DNA of 64,000 bases from Candidatus Adlerbacteria bacterium (GTDB lineage: Bacteria > Patescibacteriota > Minisyncoccia > Phycocordibacterales > SBAW01). The notes beneath the pieces are model-generated. The model was not told the DNA's origin, did not search any database, and saw only the letters and a program-made list of their open reading frames with translations. The stretch lies in NCBI GenBank assembly GCA_029288895.1, contig JARIGK010000003.1, positions 13,868 through 77,867 on the forward strand. Reading direction: 5' to 3'. The translations under genes were made by a program, and so were the position numbers. Every line of letters begins with the position of its first letter. The stretch's first letter is position 1. Of the stretch, positions 34,205 to 45,716 are shown piece by piece.

Positions 34205-35644
34205 TTAGTCTTTGCGAGCAAACAAATTCTCTGGTTTTTTGTTGGCCATAATACCCTCAATTATTTTCTTTGAAGTTTCCGGCAAAAAAGGAGCCAGCCA
34301 ATGTGCAATCTTTGTTAATTCTTTTACCTCTTCGATAATCATCGACCGCCCAAGCTCTAGATTAGTTTTTATTTCTTTGTATGGCTGATTCTCCGTTAAG
34401 TGCTTATCAAGGAAGCCTATATGCTGCCAAATAAAGTCCATAGCAGCGTTAACTTCGAAATCATCGAGCGTATTACGTAATTGCATAGGAAATTCGGTGG
34501 TTTCAATTTCTACCGCTGATTCGAGATTTTTCTCTGCCAGAGTCAGGACACGCGAAACGAGGTTGCCGAGACCGTTCGCCAGGTTCGCATTGTAGACCTC
34601 TTTGAATTGTTCGCGGGTGATATCGCCATCTTCAAATGGTGAGATGTGTCGCGCGAGGAAGTAACGCACCGCTTCGCTTCCGTATTCAGATATCAACTCT
34701 TCAGGGTCGATGACATTGCCGAGTGTCTTCGACATCTTTTTGCCACCCGAGGTGATAAAGCCGTGCACAAGCAGCGTCTTAGGTAGTGGAAGGCCGGCCG
34801 ACAGCAACATACCCGGCCAAATAGCCGCATGGAAACGCAAAATATCTTTGCCAATCACATGCACATCTGCGGGCCAGAATTCTTTGTAGAGTTCATCATC
34901 ACGGCCATACCCAAGCGCCGTGATGTAGTTTGCGAGCGCGTCACACCACACATACATTACCTGTGAGTCATCGCCCGGTACTGGCACGCCGAGGCCTTTC
35001 GGCCAGTGATCTTTGTGCGGGCGCGAGAAGCTCACATCTTCCAGTCCTTCGTTTTTGATAAACGAAAGAATTTCATGTTTGCGGCTCTCTGGCACTACCC
35101 TATATTCATCTGTTTCGATCTTTTTTTGGATTTCGTTTGCGTATTTTGAAAGGCGGAAGAAATAATTTTTCTCCTTCAAAAATTCCGGTGCAGTGCCATG
35201 GTCGGGGCATTTTCCATCAACCAAATCTTTTTCTGTCAGAAAGGCTTCGTGGCCCACGCAGTACAAGCCTTCATATTCTTTTTCGTATATATCGCCTGCA
35301 TCAACAAGTTTCTGCCACAACGCTGTGGCACCAGGCCAGTGTTTTTCTTGGTCTGTGGTGCGGATAAACTGATCGTACGAAATCTCCAGCTCGCGGAAGA
35401 GTCCTGCAAAATTTGCGACGATACCATCCAAGAATTCGAGAGGCTCCTTCCCCTCTTTGACAGCAGCATCAACCATTTTCTGCGTATTTTCGTCAGAGCC
35501 AGTAAGGAAGTATGTTTTGTCGCCCATCAATCGATGGTAACGAACGATGATGTCCGACAAGGTTGTCGTATATGCATGCCCCAAATGCAACTTGGCATTG
35601 GGATAGAAAATAGGCGTCGTGAGGTAGAATTTTTTGTCTGCCAT
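34205..35644 (-). CDS. metG: Methionyl-tRNA synthetase, short form
   Basis: 479 aa with HIGH as PIFYPNAKLHLGHAYT and KMSKS as GGKKMSKTLGN. Confidence 0.92.
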   Translation of the reverse strand: MADKKFYLTTPIFYPNAKLHLGHAYTTTLSDIIVRYHRLMGDKTYFLTGSDENTQKMVDAAVKEGKEPLEFLDGIVANFAGLFRELEISYDQFIRTTDQEKHWPGATALWQKLVDAGDIYEKEYEGLYCVGHEAFLTEKDLVDGKCPDHGTAPEFLKEKNYFFRLSKYANEIQKKIETDEYRVVPESRKHEILSFIKNEGLEDVSFSRPHKDHWPKGLGVPVPGDDSQVMYVWCDALANYITALGYGRDDELYKEFWPADVHVIGKDILRFHAAIWPGMLLSAGLPLPKTLLVHGFITSGGKKMSKTLGNVIDPEELISEYGSEAVRYFLARHISPFEDGDITREQFKEVYNANLANGLGNLVSRVLTLAEKNLESAVEIETTEFPMQLRNTLDDFEVNAAMDFIWQHIGFLDKHLTENQPYKEIKTNLELGRSMIIEEVKELTKIAHWLAPFLPETSKKIIEGIMANKKPENLFARKD

Positions 35645-40114: not shown

Positions 40115-40693
40115 TCAGAGCCCAGTTTCAGCGAGCGATGCATTGATGGCGCGTATCACTACCGGTTTCGATTGCCGAACCGCTGCGATAAGTTCGTGCG
40201 AAAACTCACTGCCTTCCAAAAACGGCGTGAGTGCAGGCCGCTGCTCGACATAGCCAAGGATGGACAAAATACGCAAGACGAGCACGCATTCGATAAGTTC
40301 GATATCGGCATCAGGGGCGCCTGCTACATACCGAAGGCCATTCGTAACATTCTCATAGAGCATCGGCACCCGCTCTTCGCCGTGAATGAGGCGCAACAGC
40401 AAGCGTGCGATGCGGCCGGCACACGCGCGCGAGGCACGAGTATCCCCCACGTACGCATGTGATATATGTTGTGCACCTGTGAGCTTCCACTCGTGTTTGC
40501 CGCGCAGAAGAGAAAAGGTGCCCGCAGTCAGTGTCTCAAGCCCGTAGCGGAGTTTGGAACGCTCGAGCCTCGCCGAGCGCGCCGAGCCGCGGATGACGCC
40601 AAACTCTTTTGTGAGTAAGACCACCGACGTGTTGGCTTCGCCGCGGCCGCGTTTGGCAAGTACTATCCCCTCGCTCGCAACAATGTCGTGCAT
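40115..40693 (-). CDS. recO: DNA repair protein RecO, short
   Basis: 192 aa. N-terminal OB-fold pattern EGIVLAKRGRGEANTSVVLLTKEFGVIRGSARSAR. The start overlaps the ileS stop. Confidence 0.5.
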   Translation of the reverse strand: MHDIVASEGIVLAKRGRGEANTSVVLLTKEFGVIRGSARSARLERSKLRYGLETLTAGTFSLLRGKHEWKLTGAQHISHAYVGDTRASRACAGRIARLLLRLIHGEERVPMLYENVTNGLRYVAGAPDADIELIECVLVLRILSILGYVEQRPALTPFLEGSEFSHELIAAVRQSKPVVIRAINASLAETGL

Positions 40694-43600
40694 TACTTCA
40701 CTTCCAAGACCAATGCTTTCAAGCCGGTTTGTGCAATAAGCGTTGCGTTGTATTTTTCTGCCACAGATTTTTCTTCCGCACTTACCTCGAGCGTCATCGT
40801 TGGGCGGTCACTAATCGAAAGCTTCTGCTCTTTGCGCCACTCTTGGATACGGCGCGCGATGTCGCGCACCATCCCCTCTTCCTTGAGTTCTGGTGTAAGG
40901 ACGGTATCGAGCACAACCTCTTTGAGGCCTGCATCAACGACAACTTCTTTTACGTTGACTTCGTCGGCGACAATCGCGCGGAGTTCGTCTGGCAGTGCGT
41001 GGTTGATAGAAAGCTTCGCGAGCGGCTGGCGCACTTTGATGGCTGCCTGGTCGCGGGCTTTGAGGCCCGCGGATGCGGCGTCGCGTGCAATGTCCATGTC
41101 GAGAAGCAACTGCGCATCGACTGCGCCAGCATGCGGCCAGTGTGAAAGGTGCACGCTGCCCTCTTCGCCTATGCCTTGCCAAACACTTTCTGCAATAAAC
41201 GGTGTGATAGGCGCCAGGAGTTGGGCTACTGTGCGGAGCACGTGGCGTTGCACCGCAACGCACAACGCCGCATCGGCGGTGTCGCTGCGAGCGCGGTCGC
41301 GCGAGCGGCGGACATACCACGTCGAGTACTGTTCGATAAAGGCGCGTATAGGGCGGCAGGCGTTAGGCATGTTGTATGCATCAAATGCTGCAGTGCTTTC
41401 TGCTACCGTTTTGTTCAAGAGCGAGAGTACCCAGCGGTCGAGCGGGTGCGTGCTTGTGGCAACGTCTACATCGGAAACTTTATCGCGGTAGAGTTCGAAG
41501 AATTTAAATGAGTTCCACAGGGTGCCCACAACGCGGTTATGTATCTCGCGCACATCTTCGTCGCGGAAGTTCAAATCTTCCGCCTGCATCACGACAGAGC
41601 TCATCAAGTAAAAGCGGTATGCGTCCGAGCCCCACTTCTCCATCAACTCCCACGGGTCGGTGTAGTTTTGCTTCGACTTACTCATCTTCGAGCCATCGGC
41701 CGCCAAGATGTTGCCCGTCACGGTCACTGCTTTAAATGATCGTTTGCCAAACAAGAAGACGCCCATCGCGTGCATGTAGTAAAACCACGTGCGCGTCTGG
41801 CCGATGTATTCGGCGATAAAGTCGCCCGGGTATCCTTTTGGCGCAAGGCCAAAGAAGCGTTCGGGATTCACCCGCGTTTTGTCGTGCGGGTAGCTCATCG
41901 ACGCAAACGGCATCGAGCCCGACTCCACCCAGCAGTCCAAGACTTCTGGGATGCGCTCGTAGCGGCTCCCCTTTTCATCGACCAACACAACATCGTCAAT
42001 ATAAGGACGATGCAGGTCGAGCTCGAACTTTGCATTGTGCGGGAATGGCGTAAATGGCAACGGCATCGACATGCCAGGTTCTATAAATACACCGTCGCGT
42101 TCGCGCGCAATATCTTCGTTGGTTTTATAGTGTGCCACCTCATGCAAAAGCCACGCCGGGCATTCGTGCGTAACAATAAGAATACGTCTGCCAATATAGC
42201 GGCGCTCAAGTTCAAAAAGAAACTCACCAACGCGTCGGCGCACATCTGCATACGTTTCTCCGCCCTCCACCGCTTTTTCGAAGCGCTCCAGGCGTGACGG
42301 AAACGCATTCCTCCAGTCAGCTATTGCTTTCCCATCATAGACACCCATTTCGATTTCGCGCAGACGCTCGTCAGTCATCAATGCCGAATCAGGCAGGCCC
42401 AATTCTTTCAGTACAAGTTTTGCGGTTTCTTGCGTACGGGCCAACGGCGACGCAACGATCATATCGATCTTCTCTTTGCTCAACGTTGCTGCAGTCGCAC
42501 GCACAACACTTCTGCCCGTCTCTGTTAGATGATTGTCGGGGTTGCCCTTCGTTTCAAAAACGCCCTTCGTATTATTCTCCGCCTCACCATGACGCATCAT
42601 AAAATAGGCGTTGCCAGATTTTTTCGTCTTAGAAAGAAGTTCTTCCAAAGAACCCACAACCATCAACTTCTTCCCTTCTTTTTCTTTCCAAATAGGAAGT
42701 GGTGATGCCCAAAAACGATTGCGCGAAATGGTCCAGTCCGGCGCATTCTCGACGATGTTGCGGAAGCGCCCCTGCTTCAAGTGCTCGGGGAACCACGTCA
42801 CCTTGTCGTTTTCTTTGAGCATTTTGCTCTTTATCTTTTGGATATTCAAAAACCACGACGGCACGGCGTTGTATATAAGTGCGGTGCCGCAACGCCAGCA
42901 GTGCGGGTAGCTGTGCGTATACATCTCGCGCGTGTGCAGCAAGCCGCGCGCTTCCAAATCGGCTTTGATATCTTTCTCGCCCTGCTTGATGTACTTGCCG
43001 CGCACAAGTTCAGGCGCCAAGTGGTTGTAGTGGCCGTTGCTTTCGAGCGTCTGCACCATCGGCAACTTTTCGCGGAGGCCAAGCTGGAAGTCGTCCTCGC
43101 CGTACATCACGGACGTGTGCACGATGCCGGTGCCGTCTTCTGCCGAGACAAAGTCTGCCGCCCACACTTTGTATGACCGCGGGCCTTTGAGTGCCGGCAC
43201 GTCAAAGAGCGGCTCGTACTCGATGCCAACCAAGTCTTTGCCCTTCAAGTCACCGCCATCTTCGTGCTCTATATAGTGTGCATTCCCCTCCTGCACCACG
43301 GCGTAGGTAATGTCATTGCCCACAGCAAGCCCTACATTGCTTGGCAAGGTCCATGGCGTCGTGGTCCACGCAAGCAGGTACGTATTTTCTGGCAAATTAA
43401 ATCGGCGTGGGTTTTTAACCTTAAAGCGCGCCACGACCGCTTCTTCTGTCACATCTTTGTAGGTGTTGTCGGCGGCGATTTCTGCTTTTGCCAATGGCGT
43501 TTCGCAGTGCGGGCAGTACATCAAGACCTTGCGTCCCTCGTACATCAAATTTTTGTCGTGCAAACGCTTCAGCGCCCACCAGATGGACTCGATGTAGGAG

Positions 43601-44046
43601 TTGTCCATTGTCTTGTACGAATTGTCGAAGTCGACCCAGCGGCCGACGCGGTCGACGTAGCGCTTCCAGTCGTGCACGTACTGCAGCACGAGCGAGCGCG
43701 CTTTTTCGTTAAATGCTTCGATACCGATATCGAGAATATCTTTTTTGGTTTTAAGGCCAAGTGTTTTCTCGACCAAGTTCTCGATCGGGAGGCCGTGCGT
43801 GTCCCAACCCCACACACGAGGCACGCGGTAGCCGCGCATCGTTTTGTAGCGCGGCACGACGTCTTTGATTATTGAAGAAAGCAAAGAGCCCGAGTGCGGC
43901 AAGCCTGTCGCAAACGGTGGCCCATCATAAAAAACAAAGTCGCCTTTGGGGGCCTCCTTTTCAACTGACTTTTCAAATGTCTTATCCTCTTTCCAAAATG
44001 CGAGAACCTTCTCCTCGCGCAGGACTGTCTCGCTCTTTTCTGCCAT
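40693..44046 (-). CDS. ileS: Isoleucyl-tRNA synthetase (type 2, eukaryote-like) with a variant HSGS motif and an inserted histidine-phosphatase domain
   Basis: 1117 aa. GPPFATGLPHSGSLL replaces the IleS2 consensus PPFATGLPHYGHIL. The CP1 editing domain, WTISRNRFWASPLPIW and KMSKSKQNY are all present. A domain of about 190 aa (YFMMRHGEAENN...IVTHECPAWLL) is inserted between the WxISRxR box and the DCWVESGSMPF region (roughly nt 42052-42615). Confidence 0.9.
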   Translation of the reverse strand: MAEKSETVLREEKVLAFWKEDKTFEKSVEKEAPKGDFVFYDGPPFATGLPHSGSLLSSIIKDVVPRYKTMRGYRVPRVWGWDTHGLPIENLVEKTLGLKTKKDILDIGIEAFNEKARSLVLQYVHDWKRYVDRVGRWVDFDNSYKTMDNSYIESIWWALKRLHDKNLMYEGRKVLMYCPHCETPLAKAEIAADNTYKDVTEEAVVARFKVKNPRRFNLPENTYLLAWTTTPWTLPSNVGLAVGNDITYAVVQEGNAHYIEHEDGGDLKGKDLVGIEYEPLFDVPALKGPRSYKVWAADFVSAEDGTGIVHTSVMYGEDDFQLGLREKLPMVQTLESNGHYNHLAPELVRGKYIKQGEKDIKADLEARGLLHTREMYTHSYPHCWRCGTALIYNAVPSWFLNIQKIKSKMLKENDKVTWFPEHLKQGRFRNIVENAPDWTISRNRFWASPLPIWKEKEGKKLMVVGSLEELLSKTKKSGNAYFMMRHGEAENNTKGVFETKGNPDNHLTETGRSVVRATAATLSKEKIDMIVASPLARTQETAKLVLKELGLPDSALMTDERLREIEMGVYDGKAIADWRNAFPSRLERFEKAVEGGETYADVRRRVGEFLFELERRYIGRRILIVTHECPAWLLHEVAHYKTNEDIARERDGVFIEPGMSMPLPFTPFPHNAKFELDLHRPYIDDVVLVDEKGSRYERIPEVLDCWVESGSMPFASMSYPHDKTRVNPERFFGLAPKGYPGDFIAEYIGQTRTWFYYMHAMGVFLFGKRSFKAVTVTGNILAADGSKMSKSKQNYTDPWELMEKWGSDAYRFYLMSSVVMQAEDLNFRDEDVREIHNRVVGTLWNSFKFFELYRDKVSDVDVATSTHPLDRWVLSLLNKTVAESTAAFDAYNMPNACRPIRAFIEQYSTWYVRRSRDRARSDTADAALCVAVQRHVLRTVAQLLAPITPFIAESVWQGIGEEGSVHLSHWPHAGAVDAQLLLDMDIARDAASAGLKARDQAAIKVRQPLAKLSINHALPDELRAIVADEVNVKEVVVDAGLKEVVLDTVLTPELKEEGMVRDIARRIQEWRKEQKLSISDRPTMTLEVSAEEKSVAEKYNATLIAQTGLKALVLEVK

Positions 44047-44084: not shown

Positions 44085-45716
44085 CTACATTTCCTGCGGT
44101 GTCGGGATGCCAAGGACATCCAAGCCTTTTGCCAGGGTGTGCTCAATAGCTTGCACAAAGAAGAGTGCGGCATCTGACACTTCCCCATCTACGATCAATC
44201 GCTCCTGCGCGTACCAACTATTGAACGCCGCCGCGAGCTCTGTCAGGTACGTCACCACATGATGTGGCTCAAGCTCGCCTGCGGCGCGCGCAACCGCATC
44301 GGGGAAATGAAGCATCAAACGCGGTAGTTCGATATTTGAGAATTCTTTTTCTACAATCTTTGCCTCCGCGGATTGGCGCAAGAGCGAACGGGTGCGCACA
44401 AGCGCGTATTGCACGTACGGACCCGAGTCGCCTTCAAGCGAAAGAGATTTCTCTGGGTCAAACGAAATATCTTTCCCACTTCCCTGTTTAAGCACGGTGT
44501 ATTTAAGTGCACCTACGGCAACATCTTCGCGGTTGCGCGCAACTTCTGTGACTTCTGCCAACAATGACTCGCCCGTAATGACATTACCCAAACGCGACGA
44601 CATTTTGCCCGTCGTTAACTTCAAGAAGCTCGTTGGGATATGCAGCAAATCTTTGCCGTCGGTCTTGCCGGGGAATAATTTTCGCAACGCATCAAACACA
44701 ATACGGAAAAAGTCAGTTTGTTCTTTGCCGGTAACAGTGATCGATATATCGAAACTTGGGTACGCCTCCGACTTTAGCTGGAAGAGGCCAACTTCTTTTG
44801 CTTCATACGTTGGCAGACCCTGCGAATTTAAAAACACGCGCGTATGTTCGCCTTTGTAGACGACAGCGCCTTCGCTTTCTTCAAATACTTTGCCCACTTC
44901 GCCGCGGACGATGCGCGCACCAAGCGGGCCAGATTCACTTTCAAAAAATTCTTTATCGAACCCTTGCGTGCCGAGGCGCGCCAATAATGCGTGCAAATGC
45001 TTAAGAGATGTCGCGATGCCTTTTTCGCGCAAAGCAGACCATTCAGCATTCGAACCGGCATACAACGCACGGTTTATCTCTTCGATTTTTTCTTTTGCCT
45101 CGCCGCTTTCGTACGCTTCGTTACCAGCAACATAGGCCTTCCCCAGCTGCGCAATATCTTCCGCGTTTAAATTTCCATTCTGCAAACCCCACACGCCTTT
45201 GGCGATGGTAAGGCCGATGTCGGAGGGATAGTTCAAGCGTTTAACATCAGCACCGCTTGCTTCAAACAAGCGCGCAACGCTCTCGCCCACAATGTTGCCC
45301 ACCAAGTTGCCGATATGGAGCGGCTTAAAGAGGTTAGGGCTCGTATATTCCACAAGCACCTTCTTTCCTATGTACAGTTCATTTGTGCCCCACCCTTCCT
45401 CGTGTGCTGCGCGCACGACATCAGCGAGCGCTTCGTTTGAGAGCCAGAAGTTGATAAACCCAGCGCCTGCGATTTCTGTTTTCTCGATACCTTCTATTGT
45501 GCCAAGTGCATTCTGCAACTCTGCTGCAACTTCGCGCGGATTCTTTTTCAAAACTTTTGCCGCAGCCAGCGCCGCATTCGTTGCGTAGTCGCCATGCTCC
45601 ATCGAGCCCGGCCTCTCCACCACAAACGCAATATCACCCGCACCCATCCCCTCGAGCGCATGTTGAATTGCTTTTTCTATCTCATGCCGAACCATACTAT
45701 TCCTTAACAATAACAA
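44085..45716 (-). CDS. argS: Arginyl-tRNA synthetase
   Basis: 543 aa with an ArgRS N-terminal add-on domain and catalytic core. The motif reads ..EYTSPNLFKPLHIGNLVGN.. (HIGN where HVGH is usual), and the C-terminal DALR anticodon-binding domain is present. Confidence 0.88.
   Translation of the reverse strand: MLLLRNSMVRHEIEKAIQHALEGMGAGDIAFVVERPGSMEHGDYATNAALAAAKVLKKNPREVAAELQNALGTIEGIEKTEIAGAGFINFWLSNEALADVVRAAHEEGWGTNELYIGKKVLVEYTSPNLFKPLHIGNLVGNIVGESVARLFEASGADVKRLNYPSDIGLTIAKGVWGLQNGNLNAEDIAQLGKAYVAGNEAYESGEAKEKIEEINRALYAGSNAEWSALREKGIATSLKHLHALLARLGTQGFDKEFFESESGPLGARIVRGEVGKVFEESEGAVVYKGEHTRVFLNSQGLPTYEAKEVGLFQLKSEAYPSFDISITVTGKEQTDFFRIVFDALRKLFPGKTDGKDLLHIPTSFLKLTTGKMSSRLGNVITGESLLAEVTEVARNREDVAVGALKYTVLKQGSGKDISFDPEKSLSLEGDSGPYVQYALVRTRSLLRQSAEAKIVEKEFSNIELPRLMLHFPDAVARAAGELEPHHVVTYLTELAAAFNSWYAQERLIVDGEVSDAALFFVQAIEHTLAKGLDVLGIPTPQEM

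What the first reader, a model, noticed from the sequence alone, without database searches (positions are those of the whole stretch)
43888..43899. IleS class I signature HIGH is degenerate (HSGS instead of HYGH)
The motif reads GPPFATGLPHSGSLL, while type 2 IleS is strongly conserved as PPFATGLPHYGHIL. The second His contacts the ATP phosphates in class I synthetases, so its loss is unusual for what looks like the only ileS copy here. KMSKS (KMSKSKQNY) is intact. Together with the inserted phosphatase domain this suggests an altered activation chemistry or a compensating residue.
Basis: partly seen in the sequence, partly recalled or inferred. Interest (0 to 1): 0.6.

Follow-up and report, generated by a model that had tools for sequence, protein, structure and literature searches.

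The report
Natural HxGS signature in Patescibacteria IleRS
The isoleucyl-tRNA synthetase here really lacks the second histidine of its ATP-site "HIGH" signature, but this is a Ser/Asn/Thr variant fixed under selection across a large clade of Patescibacteria, not an error or a decaying gene, and the papers searched here do not describe it.

Summary
The type 2 IleS (window 40693..44046, minus strand, 1117 aa) reads GLP-HSGS-LLSS, and KMSKS is intact. The stated coordinates are 3 nt off: HSGS is 43885..43896.

It is not an error. 112 of 119 close homologues carry HxGS or HxGN. In 80 GTDB genomes the fourth-position Ser is encoded by all four TCN codons and by AGY. dN/dS against relatives is 0.05–0.12. 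Every other synthetic-site and editing-site motif checked is conserved, apart from one ribose-binding Asp that a much larger subtype also lacks.

On an NJ tree the window sits in a 161-member Paceibacteria clade where non-His looks ancestral. At least three groups inside it have returned to His, and about ten other IleRS2 lineages lost His independently.

Position 4 co-varies with residue 57, one helical turn later. It also co-varies with motif position 2.

The inserted histidine-phosphatase domain is not coupled to the change. It occurs with HYGH, GxHH and HxGS motifs alike.

The literature I could search knows only the G/AxHH IleRS2 variant. I read this as a functional housekeeping enzyme with a third natural signature type, in which Ser partly replaces the phosphate contact. 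Enzyme kinetics, inhibitor sensitivity and the absence of a second ileS elsewhere in the genome are untested.

The parts
40693..44046 (-). ileS gene: a 1117-aa type 2 isoleucyl-tRNA synthetase with an inserted His_Phos_1 domain
   Evidence: ORF listed. Pfam finds tRNA-synt_1, His_Phos_1, Anticodon_1 and DUF5915. TIGR00392 scores 787 bits against a cutoff of 621. The best solved relatives are IleRS2 8c8u and 1ile. The AF2 model has pLDDT 84.9 and its top fold hit is PmIleRS2, TM 0.70-0.76.
43885..43896 (-). Class I signature motif reading H51-S52-G53-S54 (codons CAC TCG GGC TCT) instead of HYGH
   Evidence: The motif aligns to HVGH of 8c8u. It sits at the N-terminus of predicted helix 51-70.
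43876..43878 (-). Ser57, one helical turn after S54, which co-varies with motif position 4
   Evidence: Within the clade, 54=S/N/T goes with 57=S in 145 of 149 members, and 54=H goes with 57=A/G in 11 of 11.
41797..41811 (-). E746-Y-I-G749-Q750, the ribose/amino-acid binding strand-helix motif, which is EGxDQ in canonical IleRS2. The Asp that H-bonds ribose O2' is Gly here.
   Evidence: The role of Asp571, Gly569 and Glu568 in CaIleRS is from PMC7191050. The Asp-less subtype makes up 199 of 307 sampled sequences and includes HYGH members.
41674..41688 (-). Intact KMSKS loop motif (aa 787-791)
   Evidence: K787, S789 and K790 are conserved in at least 304 of 306 sequences.
42037..42621 (-). [quoted passage not shown] It is context for the finding and is not coupled to the HIGH change.
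   Evidence: PF00300 E=2e-35 over aa 482-639. R485, H486, R537, E564 and H627 are conserved in at least 217 of 222 insert-bearing sequences. The insert occurs across all motif types.
43348..43368 (-). Editing-domain threonine-rich peptide WTTTPWT, intact. It is evidence that this is a full-function enzyme.
   Evidence: The peptide is invariant or nearly so in 307 sequences.

Best explanation
This is the functional, housekeeping type 2 isoleucyl-tRNA synthetase of a Paceibacteria (Patescibacteria/CPR) bacterium. Its class I signature motif belongs to a natural, lineage-fixed variant HxG[S/N/T].

Shown here. The fourth His was replaced by Ser at or near the base of a large clade that includes Adlerbacteria, Kaiserbacteria, Vogelbacteria and Nomurabacteria. 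It has been kept by purifying selection since then. The same replacement arose several more times in other Patescibacteria IleRS2 lineages.

Inferred mechanism. The fourth His normally donates an H-bond from its side chain to the alpha-phosphate of ATP or Ile-AMP. A small polar H-bonding residue (Ser, Thr or Asn) takes over that contact, either through water or after a small shift of the helix N-terminus. It is helped by Ser57 one turn further along the same helix. The lysines of the intact KMSKS loop and the conserved CP-core arginines carry most of the transition-state stabilisation.

The change happened on an IleRS2 background whose adenylate pocket was already remodelled: the ribose-binding Asp of EGxDQ had been lost, giving EYx[A/G]Q. 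IleRS2 is also known to tolerate signature-motif changes.

The expected consequences are a somewhat weaker ATP/adenylate grip, tolerable in slow-growing reduced-genome symbionts, and probably lower affinity for Ile-AMP-mimicking inhibitors. Both are inferences.
For: Identity as IleRS2.

Clade-wide motif: HHGS 54, HSGS 19, HTGS 17, HYGS 7, HxGN 8, and only 7 HxGH among 119 homologues at 57-81% identity.

Codon evidence: Ser is encoded by TCG 22, TCA 9, TCC 8, TCT 4, AGT 2 and AGC 1. Asn (AAY) and Thr (ACC) are also present.

Selection: dN/dS is 0.05-0.12 against six relatives. Residues 39-62 are invariant in the 161-member clade except motif positions 2 and 4, at a median pairwise identity of 0.60.

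Other catalytic and editing residues are intact: P43/P44, D82, Q750, W754, KMSKS, WTTTPWT, GTGxVH...GEDD, and R442/R444.

Phylogeny: non-His is basal in the clade, at least 3 groups inside it have returned to His, and there are about 10 other origins. Fitch parsimony gives 18 changes.

Coupling: position 54 with 57; position 2 with 4 (H4 goes with Y/F/M/I, S4 with H/S/T/Y, N4 with V/I/A); 54 and 57 lie on one helix.

Conserved argS-ileS synteny is seen in 53 of 80 genomes.

Role of the fourth His: PMC7191050 and PMC9424281.

Tolerance of IleRS2 to signature changes: PMC10485003.

Class I precedent for Asn at position 4: bacterial TrpRS TIGN, PMC10201369.

His loss is enriched on the Asp-less background: 9/33 versus 5/67, p=0.012, not corrected for phylogeny.
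Against: No enzymology exists, so activity, Km(ATP) and inhibitor sensitivity are all inferred.

A Ser hydroxyl is about 3 A shorter than His N-epsilon2, so a direct phosphate contact is not guaranteed. I could not measure distances in the model. The loop just before the motif (aa 45-50) has pLDDT below 50.

Ser57 is not strictly required. Outside the main clade, non-His motifs occur with P, T, Q, V or A at position 57. The sister group has His54 together with Ser57.

The tree is a single NJ tree without bootstrap support. Some of the 'reversions' look like recombinant N-terminal segments, so the event counts are approximate.

Whole genomes could not be scanned for a second ileS.
Confidence: 0.75

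Rival explanations
1. The substitution was selected as resistance to natural Ile-AMP-mimicking antibiotics (mupirocin/pseudomonic-acid-like or similar), in the way the G/AxHH swap gives IleRS2 hyper-resistance. It would then be an adaptation, not a tolerated near-neutral change.
For: Signature-motif changes in IleRS2 raise the mupirocin Ki by up to 1000-fold with only mild catalytic cost (PMC10485003). A fourth-position His-to-Gln change (H67Q) appears in laboratory-selected mupirocin-resistant S. aureus IleRS1. The change recurs independently in about 10 lineages and is stably kept, which fits positive selection followed by purifying selection.
Against: No inhibitor data exist for any HxGS enzyme. 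Canonical IleRS2 is already mupirocin-resistant, so extra pressure is not obvious. Recurrence limited to reduced-genome Patescibacteria fits relaxed demand for catalytic speed equally well. This rival is compatible with the best explanation: it addresses why the change was fixed, not what the enzyme is.
Confidence: 0.3
2. The gene is a diverged or degenerating paralogue under relaxed selection (a pseudo-synthetase or an enzyme with a new function), and a canonical ileS elsewhere in the genome does the charging.
For: Two canonical adenylate contacts are missing: the fourth His and the ribose-binding Asp. An extra enzymatic domain is inserted. The rest of the genome could not be inspected.
Against: dN/dS is 0.05-0.12. 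All other synthetic-site, editing-site and KMSKS residues are conserved. The protein scores above the ileS equivalog cutoff. It lies in a conserved argS-ileS housekeeping neighbourhood in 53 of 80 genomes. No second ileS is present in the 64 kb. The Asp-less and insert-bearing forms are the majority IleRS type among the sampled Patescibacteria relatives. From general knowledge, Patescibacteria genomes are about 1 Mb and normally carry single aaRS genes.
Confidence: 0.05
3. The HIGH change is functionally tied to the inserted histidine-phosphatase domain. In this view the insert supplies a compensating residue or a new phosphoryl chemistry at the activation site.
For: Both features occur in the window protein. 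The insert keeps a complete catalytic set: R485, H486, R537, E564 and H627. All 120 closest homologues have both features or nearly so.
Against: The insert is found with HYGH (37 representatives), with GxHH (at least 13) and with HxGS. HxG[S/T] also occurs in proteins without the insert: P0137, P0143, P0156, P0245 and L076. The association among representatives is not significant: 9/41 versus 5/60, p=0.08. His-bearing members inside the clade keep the insert.
Confidence: 0.05
4. Sequencing, assembly or frame error at these codons.
For: None beyond the rarity of the motif.
Against: The ORF is uninterrupted. HSGS is identical in 19 other cluster representatives, and HxGS/N is present in 112 of 119 homologues from NCBI, JGI, ENA and Logan assemblies. 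Six different Ser codons are used across 46 genomes.
Confidence: 0.01

Closest known systems
Canonical bacterial and eukaryote-type IleRS2 with HxGH. Examples: Priestia megaterium IleRS2 (PDB 8C8U/8C8V), Thermus thermophilus IleRS (1ILE), yeast and Candida IleRS (7D5C, 6LDK).
   Same: Full-length homology (E=5e-191 to 8c8u). The fold matches, with TM 0.70-0.84. It has a type 2 C-terminal region (DUF5915), KMSKS, a CP1 editing site, and the Ile-pocket residues P43/P44, D82, Q750 and W754.
   Different: The fourth residue of the signature is Ser, not His. Motif position 2 is Ser, not Tyr, Val or Ile. The ribose-binding Asp (CaIleRS Asp571) is Gly. A ~195-aa histidine phosphatase domain is inserted after the CP region.
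Non-canonical G/AxHH IleRS2, which is mupirocin hyper-resistant. Examples: Deinococcus radiodurans ALHH and Streptomyces griseus (Brkic et al. 2023, PMC10485003).
   Same: It is a natural, clade-level alteration of the class I signature in a housekeeping IleRS2. It is confined to the IleRS2 (HUP-2) lineage. It also shows occasional reversion to the canonical motif.
   Different: There, positions 1 and 3 are swapped and the fourth His is kept. Here, positions 1 and 3 are canonical (H51, G53) and the fourth His is lost. Resistance has been measured for G/AxHH and is unknown for HxGS.
S. aureus IleRS1 H67Q, a fourth-position His-to-Gln change in laboratory-selected mupirocin-resistant mutants.
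   Same: The same motif position is changed to a polar non-His residue in an IleRS.
   Different: It is a type 1 enzyme and a laboratory mutation that arose in combination with others. It is reported not to occur in clinical isolates, probably because of a catalytic cost. It is not a natural fixed state.
Bacterial TrpRS 'TIGN' signature, a class I aaRS with Asn at the fourth position.
   Same: It shows that a class I synthetase can work with a non-His polar residue at signature position 4 (PMC10201369). HxGN also occurs in this IleRS clade.
   Different: It is a different subclass (Ic, dimeric), and the first position differs as well (Thr). The resemblance is a mechanistic analogy only, not homology at family level.

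Membership tests
Isoleucyl-tRNA synthetase (TIGR00392 ileS equivalog) | Full-length match above the curated equivalog cutoff | tested here: met
   787.1 bits against a cutoff of 621.4. ValS, LeuS and MetG models fall below their cutoffs.
Isoleucyl-tRNA synthetase, type 2 (IleRS2 / HUP-2) | Type 2 C-terminal organisation (no IleRS1 zinc-binding domain) and closest relatives that are IleRS2 | tested here: met
   PF19302 DUF5915 covers aa 1044-1107. The best PDB sequence hits are PmIleRS2 8c8u (641 bits) and 1ile, against IleRS1 8c9e and 1ffy at 280-288 bits. The top fold hits are IleRS2.
Class I aminoacyl-tRNA synthetases | Canonical HxGH (HIGH) signature at the N-terminus of the first Rossmann helix | tested here: not met
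   The motif is H-S-G-S, so the fourth His is absent. The position and helix context are preserved. The family already contains accepted members with non-canonical signatures: G/AxHH IleRS2 (PMC10485003) and TIGN TrpRS (PMC10201369). This failure therefore defines the variant and does not exclude membership.
Class I aminoacyl-tRNA synthetases | KMSKS loop | tested here: met
   KMSKS is at aa 787-791. K787, S789 and K790 are conserved in at least 304 of 306 relatives.
Isoleucyl-tRNA synthetase | CP1 editing domain with the Thr-rich peptide and the GTGxVH...D motifs | tested here: met
   WTTTPWT is at 227-233 and GTGIVH...GEDD at 305-319, all conserved.
Isoleucyl-tRNA synthetase | Ile-specific activation and charging of tRNA-Ile | not testable with these tools
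   The pocket residues are conserved: P43/P44, D82, Q750 and W754, equivalent to CaIleRS Pro53, Asp92, Gln572 and Trp576. Activity has not been measured.
G/AxHH hyper-resistant IleRS2 (Brkic 2023) | Gly or Ala at signature position 1 and His at position 3 | tested here: not met
   The window has H51 and G53. GxHH sequences form a separate clade in the tree.
Acquired mupirocin-resistance IleRS MupA/MupB | NCBIfam exception models NF000257 and NF000258 above their cutoff of 1900 bits | tested here: not met
   610 and 628 bits, well below 1900.
Histidine phosphatase superfamily, branch 1 (the inserted domain) | PF00300 match plus the catalytic RHG His, two Arg, a Glu and a second His | tested here: met
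   PF00300 scores 122.6 bits against a cutoff of 21.7. R485, H486, R537, E564 and H627 are conserved. The substrate is unknown.
Degenerate or pseudo-synthetase paralogue | Relaxed selection and loss of several catalytic or editing motifs | tested here: not met
   dN/dS is 0.05-0.12. The motifs are intact.

The most novel reading that the evidence does not exclude
HxG[S/T/N] is a third natural class of IleRS signature motif, alongside HxGH and G/AxHH. Combined with loss of the ribose-binding Asp, it marks a re-wired ATP/adenylate site in Patescibacteria IleRS2. In this reading the fourth His is dispensable for class Ia catalysis, and the enzyme is intrinsically (hyper)resistant to Ile-AMP-mimicking antibiotics. 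The parallel HIGN in the neighbouring ArgRS would then point to a lineage-wide shift in how these reduced-genome bacteria bind ATP in class I synthetases.
Probability: 0.3. Interest if true: 0.7.

Novelty: new variant of a known kind. Interest (0 to 1): 0.5.

Why it matters
The HIGH signature is one of the two defining catalytic motifs of class I synthetases. For IleRS it is described as almost absolutely conserved. The only recognised natural exception, G/AxHH, was reported as highly unexpected and turned out to explain antibiotic hyper-resistance.

Here, a large and diverse bacterial clade runs its only detectable IleRS without the phosphate-contacting His, and the same change has arisen repeatedly elsewhere. 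This gives a ready-made natural experiment on three questions:
- how much that His contributes to catalysis;
- which second-site residues buffer its loss (Ser57, and motif position 2);
- whether the change alters sensitivity to IleRS-targeting antibiotics.

It also warns annotation and motif-based screens not to treat HxGS IleRS as defective.

Tried and rejected
1. A naive comparison of His against non-His groups across all columns was dominated by phylogeny, because most non-His sequences are one clade. I replaced it with a tree-based view and within-clade contingency tables.

2. The AgnB2 self-immunity LeuRS looked like a possible precedent for an altered HIGH motif. The paper shows a canonical H47-I-G-H50, and the resistance determinants lie elsewhere, so I dropped it.

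3. Literature searches found nothing on HxGS or fourth-position variants in Patescibacteria, or on an IleRS-histidine phosphatase fusion. The library is limited to open-access papers and preprints.

4. The look-up of encoding contigs did not find the window's exact protein, so the source record was not identified.

5. The listing of cluster members gave names for only 3 of the 10 outlying non-His lineages: Magasanikbacteria, Kaiserbacteria and an unclassified 'bacterium'.

6. A test for a second ileS in the same genome was not possible. Only 64 kb is available, and locus tools return at most 10 kb of flank even for contigs of 590-860 kb. tblastn within the window found only the gene itself.

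7. The AF2 model confirmed the fold and helix register. Coordinates are not exposed, so I could not measure the distance from S54 or S57 to the adenylate.

8. I considered whether the His residue common at motif position 2 (HHGS, the clade majority) compensates for the lost fourth His. I rejected this as a general explanation because position 2 is the most variable site in the segment (H, S, T, Y, V, I, A, M, Q, D), and the window itself has Ser there.
Full report
**1. What is in the sequence**

The finding lies in a 1117-aa ORF on the minus strand, window 40693..44046. Translating 43870-43920 on the minus strand gives PPFATGLPHSGSLLSSI. HSGS is residues 51-54, which is nucleotides 43885..43896, with codons CAC TCG GGC TCT. 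The finding's coordinates (43888-43899) cover P-H-S-G, one codon off.

Pfam finds a tRNA-synt_1 catalytic domain split by a His_Phos_1 domain (aa 482-639), followed by Anticodon_1 and DUF5915. NCBIfam places the protein in the ileS equivalog TIGR00392 at 787 bits, above the cutoff of 621. The MupA and MupB models score far below their cutoffs.

The closest solved structures are type 2 IleRS: P. megaterium IleRS2 8c8u (E=5e-191) and T. thermophilus 1ile. S54 aligns with the fourth His of their HVGH.

An AlphaFold2 model built on 54 homologues has mean pLDDT 84.9 and pTM 0.75. It places H51 at the N-terminus of a helix spanning 51-70. Its best fold matches are IleRS2 structures with TM 0.70-0.84. 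KMSKS is intact at aa 787-791.

**2. Not an error and not decay**

The 120 best database homologues (57-100% identity, from NCBI, JGI, ENA and Logan assemblies) all carry the His_Phos insert. Their motifs are HHGS 54, HSGS 19, HTGS 17, HYGS 7, HVGN 5, HAGS 3, HMGS 2, HIGN 2 and one each of HAGN, HIGS and HQGS. Only HYGH 4 and HIGH 3 keep the fourth His.

Among the 80 GTDB species-representative loci fetched, all from uncultured MAG or SAG assemblies and mostly titled Patescibacteria groups, the fourth-position Ser is encoded by TCG 22, TCA 9, TCC 8, TCT 4, AGT 2 and AGC 1. Asn is AAT or AAC, and Thr is ACC. Synonymous turnover across both Ser codon families shows long-term maintenance of the amino acid.

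Nei-Gojobori dN/dS between the window gene and six relatives is 0.05-0.12, with dS saturated.

Within the clade that contains the window (161 sampled sequences, median pairwise identity 0.60), residues 39-62 are essentially invariant. The exceptions are motif position 2 (H60, S31, T23, Y18, V6, I6 and others) and position 4 (S139, H11, N9, T1).

The other functional residues are conserved across 307 sequences: P43/P44, D82, Q750 and W754 of the Ile/adenylate pocket; R442 and R444 of the CP-core loop; KMSKS; and the editing motifs WTTTPWT and GTGxVH...GEDD.

The gene sits next to argS in 53 of 80 related genomes. tblastn finds no second ileS in the 64-kb window.

**3. Evolutionary pattern**

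A sweep of 50%-identity representatives with the N-terminal 480 aa showed three motif groups in the surrounding IleRS2 landscape:
- HYGH is dominant (76 of 150).
- The known G[ILVM]HH variant accounts for about 25.
- A recurrent minority has Ser, Thr or Asn at position 4: HYGS, HYGT, HHGT, HYGN, HIGN, HSGN, HHGS and others.

I built an NJ tree of 307 sequences from 807 well-occupied columns, excluding the motif and the insert. It places the window in a 161-member clade whose basal branches are all non-His (HYGS or HVGN). This implies one ancestral His-to-Ser change.

Inside that clade, 11 sequences carry His again, in at least three groups: HMGH ×4, HIGH ×3 and HYGH ×4. The four HYGH sequences resemble each other more over residues 1-170 (0.82-0.94) than over the rest of the protein (0.63-0.73). 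They are probably recombinant N-terminal modules or chimeric assemblies, not four separate reversions.

Outside the clade there are about ten further origins. They include Magasanikbacteria, Doudnabacteria, a second Kaiserbacteria lineage, and an HYGT/HHGT group without the insert. Fitch parsimony gives 18 changes in total. The tree has no bootstrap support, so these counts are approximate.

All lineages for which a source gives a taxon name are Patescibacteria.

**4. Coupled positions**

Within the clade, position 54 = S/N/T goes with Ser57 in 145 of 149 sequences. Position 54 = His goes with Ala or Gly at 57 in all 11. Residues 54 and 57 are one turn apart on the same helix. The coupling is not absolute: the His-bearing sister group has Ser57, and outlying non-His lineages have P, T, Q or V at 57.

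Motif position 2 depends on position 4:
- With His at position 4, it is Y, F, M or I.
- With Ser, it is mostly H, S, T or Y.
- With Asn, it is V, I or A.

The window and 199 of 307 sampled sequences also have EYx[A/G]QTR[T/A]WF in place of the canonical EGxDQTRGWF. This older change includes many HYGH enzymes. Among representatives, His loss is more frequent on this Asp-less background: 9/33 versus 5/67, Fisher p=0.012, uncorrected for phylogeny.

**5. Mechanism**

The following is shown in the literature:
- In C. albicans IleRS, the side chain of the fourth His (His64) H-bonds the phosphate of Ile-AMP. Asp571, Gly569 and Glu568 hold the ribose (PMC7191050).
- In N. gonorrhoeae LeuRS, N-epsilon2 of the fourth His H-bonds the alpha-phosphate of ATP (PMC9424281).
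- In IleRS2, the helix tip carrying the motif is shifted by about 2.3 A towards the KMSKS loop. That shift lets IleRS2, but not IleRS1, accept a non-canonical signature with only mild loss of activity (PMC10485003).
- Bacterial TrpRS naturally uses TIGN (PMC10201369).

My inference is that Ser, Thr or Asn at position 4 keeps an H-bonding group near the alpha-phosphate, probably through water or a small helix shift. Ser57 would help shape the site. KMSKS and the CP-core arginines would supply most of the transition-state stabilisation.

The enzyme probably binds ATP and the adenylate more weakly. It may bind adenylate-mimicking antibiotics less well. A His-to-Gln change at this same position arises in laboratory-selected mupirocin-resistant S. 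aureus. None of this has been measured.

**6.

The proposed link to the phosphatase insert is not supported. The insert occurs with HYGH, GxHH and HxGS motifs. HxG[S/T] occurs without it. The association among representatives is not significant: 9/41 versus 5/60, p=0.08.

**7. Comparison with what is known, and novelty**

The protein is a member of IleRS2 by every test except the canonical signature itself. It is not a G/AxHH enzyme, because H51 and G53 are canonical. It is not a MupA/MupB-type acquired resistance enzyme.

The two most relevant papers, Brkic et al. 2023 and a 2026 preprint that drew on a GTDB-scale set of 109,435 bacterial IleRS, recognise only [A/G]xHH as a natural IleRS2 variant. 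My searches found no description of HxGS, HxGN or HxGT.

I therefore rate this as a new variant of a known kind. It is a real, selected and recurrent alteration of a defining catalytic motif, of moderate interest to synthetase specialists. It is directly testable with the assays already used for G/AxHH.

**8. Limits**

- There is no biochemistry.
- The source genome could not be scanned for a second ileS.
- The phylogeny is a single NJ tree.
- The structural model could be used only for fold and secondary structure.

Noticed in passing
window 42037..42621 (-), IleS aa ~476-670: [quoted passage not shown] Its catalytic residues R485, H486, R537, E564 and H627 are conserved in at least 217 of 222 insert-bearing IleRS2. 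The insert is widespread in Patescibacteria IleRS2 with all signature types. I found no paper describing it, and its substrate and role are unknown.
   Followed up: partly
window 45306..45317 (-), ArgRS aa 134-137 (gene 44085..45716): The neighbouring arginyl-tRNA synthetase reads HIGN where solved ArgRS have HVGH (aligned to 6ao8). HIGN or HVGN is conserved in 9 of the 11 related loci where the motif was found. These include genomes whose IleRS is still HYGH, so this is a separate and apparently older loss of the fourth His in a second class I enzyme. The window's MetRS (35576..35587) keeps HLGH.
   Followed up: partly
window 41797..41811 (-), IleS aa 746-750: The ribose/amino-acid binding motif is EYIGQTRTWF instead of the canonical EGxDQTRGWF. 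The Asp that H-bonds ribose O2' in C. albicans IleRS (Asp571) is Gly here and Ala in most relatives. This Asp-less subtype makes up 199 of 307 sampled IleRS2 and includes many HYGH enzymes, so it predates the His loss.
   Followed up: partly
proteins P0024, P0061, P0072, P0077 (relatives; aligned to window IleS aa 1-170): The four HYGH-bearing members nested among HHGS sequences share their N-terminal ~170 aa with each other (0.82-0.94 identity) more than the rest of the protein (0.63-0.73). This suggests either recombination of an N-terminal catalytic module between lineages or chimeric metagenome assemblies.
   Followed up: partly
window 43891..43893 (-), IleS aa 52 (motif position 2): Motif position 2 is nearly always Tyr or a hydrophobic residue when position 4 is His. 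It becomes the most variable site of the segment once position 4 is Ser (H, S, T, Y, A, M, Q, D). It is V, I or A when position 4 is Asn. This is a clear dependence between the two positions, and it is unexplained.
   Followed up: partly
IleS aa 45-50 and 184-195 (window ~43897..43914 and ~43462..43497, -): In an otherwise confident AlphaFold2 model, the loop immediately before the signature motif (FATGLP) and a segment at aa 184-195 have pLDDT below 50, even though their sequences are invariant or nearly so in the clade. These may be ligand-dependent conformations.
   Followed up: no
loci L002, L005-L008, L057, L062-L063, L068, L077, L079 (GTDB records): Many related MAG records are titled 'uncultured Candidatus Saccharibacteria', 'Gammaproteobacteria' or 'Pseudomonadales'. 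However, they carry IleRS and argS-ileS neighbourhoods typical of Paceibacteria or Magasanikbacteria, so the record titles look unreliable for taxonomy.
   Followed up: no
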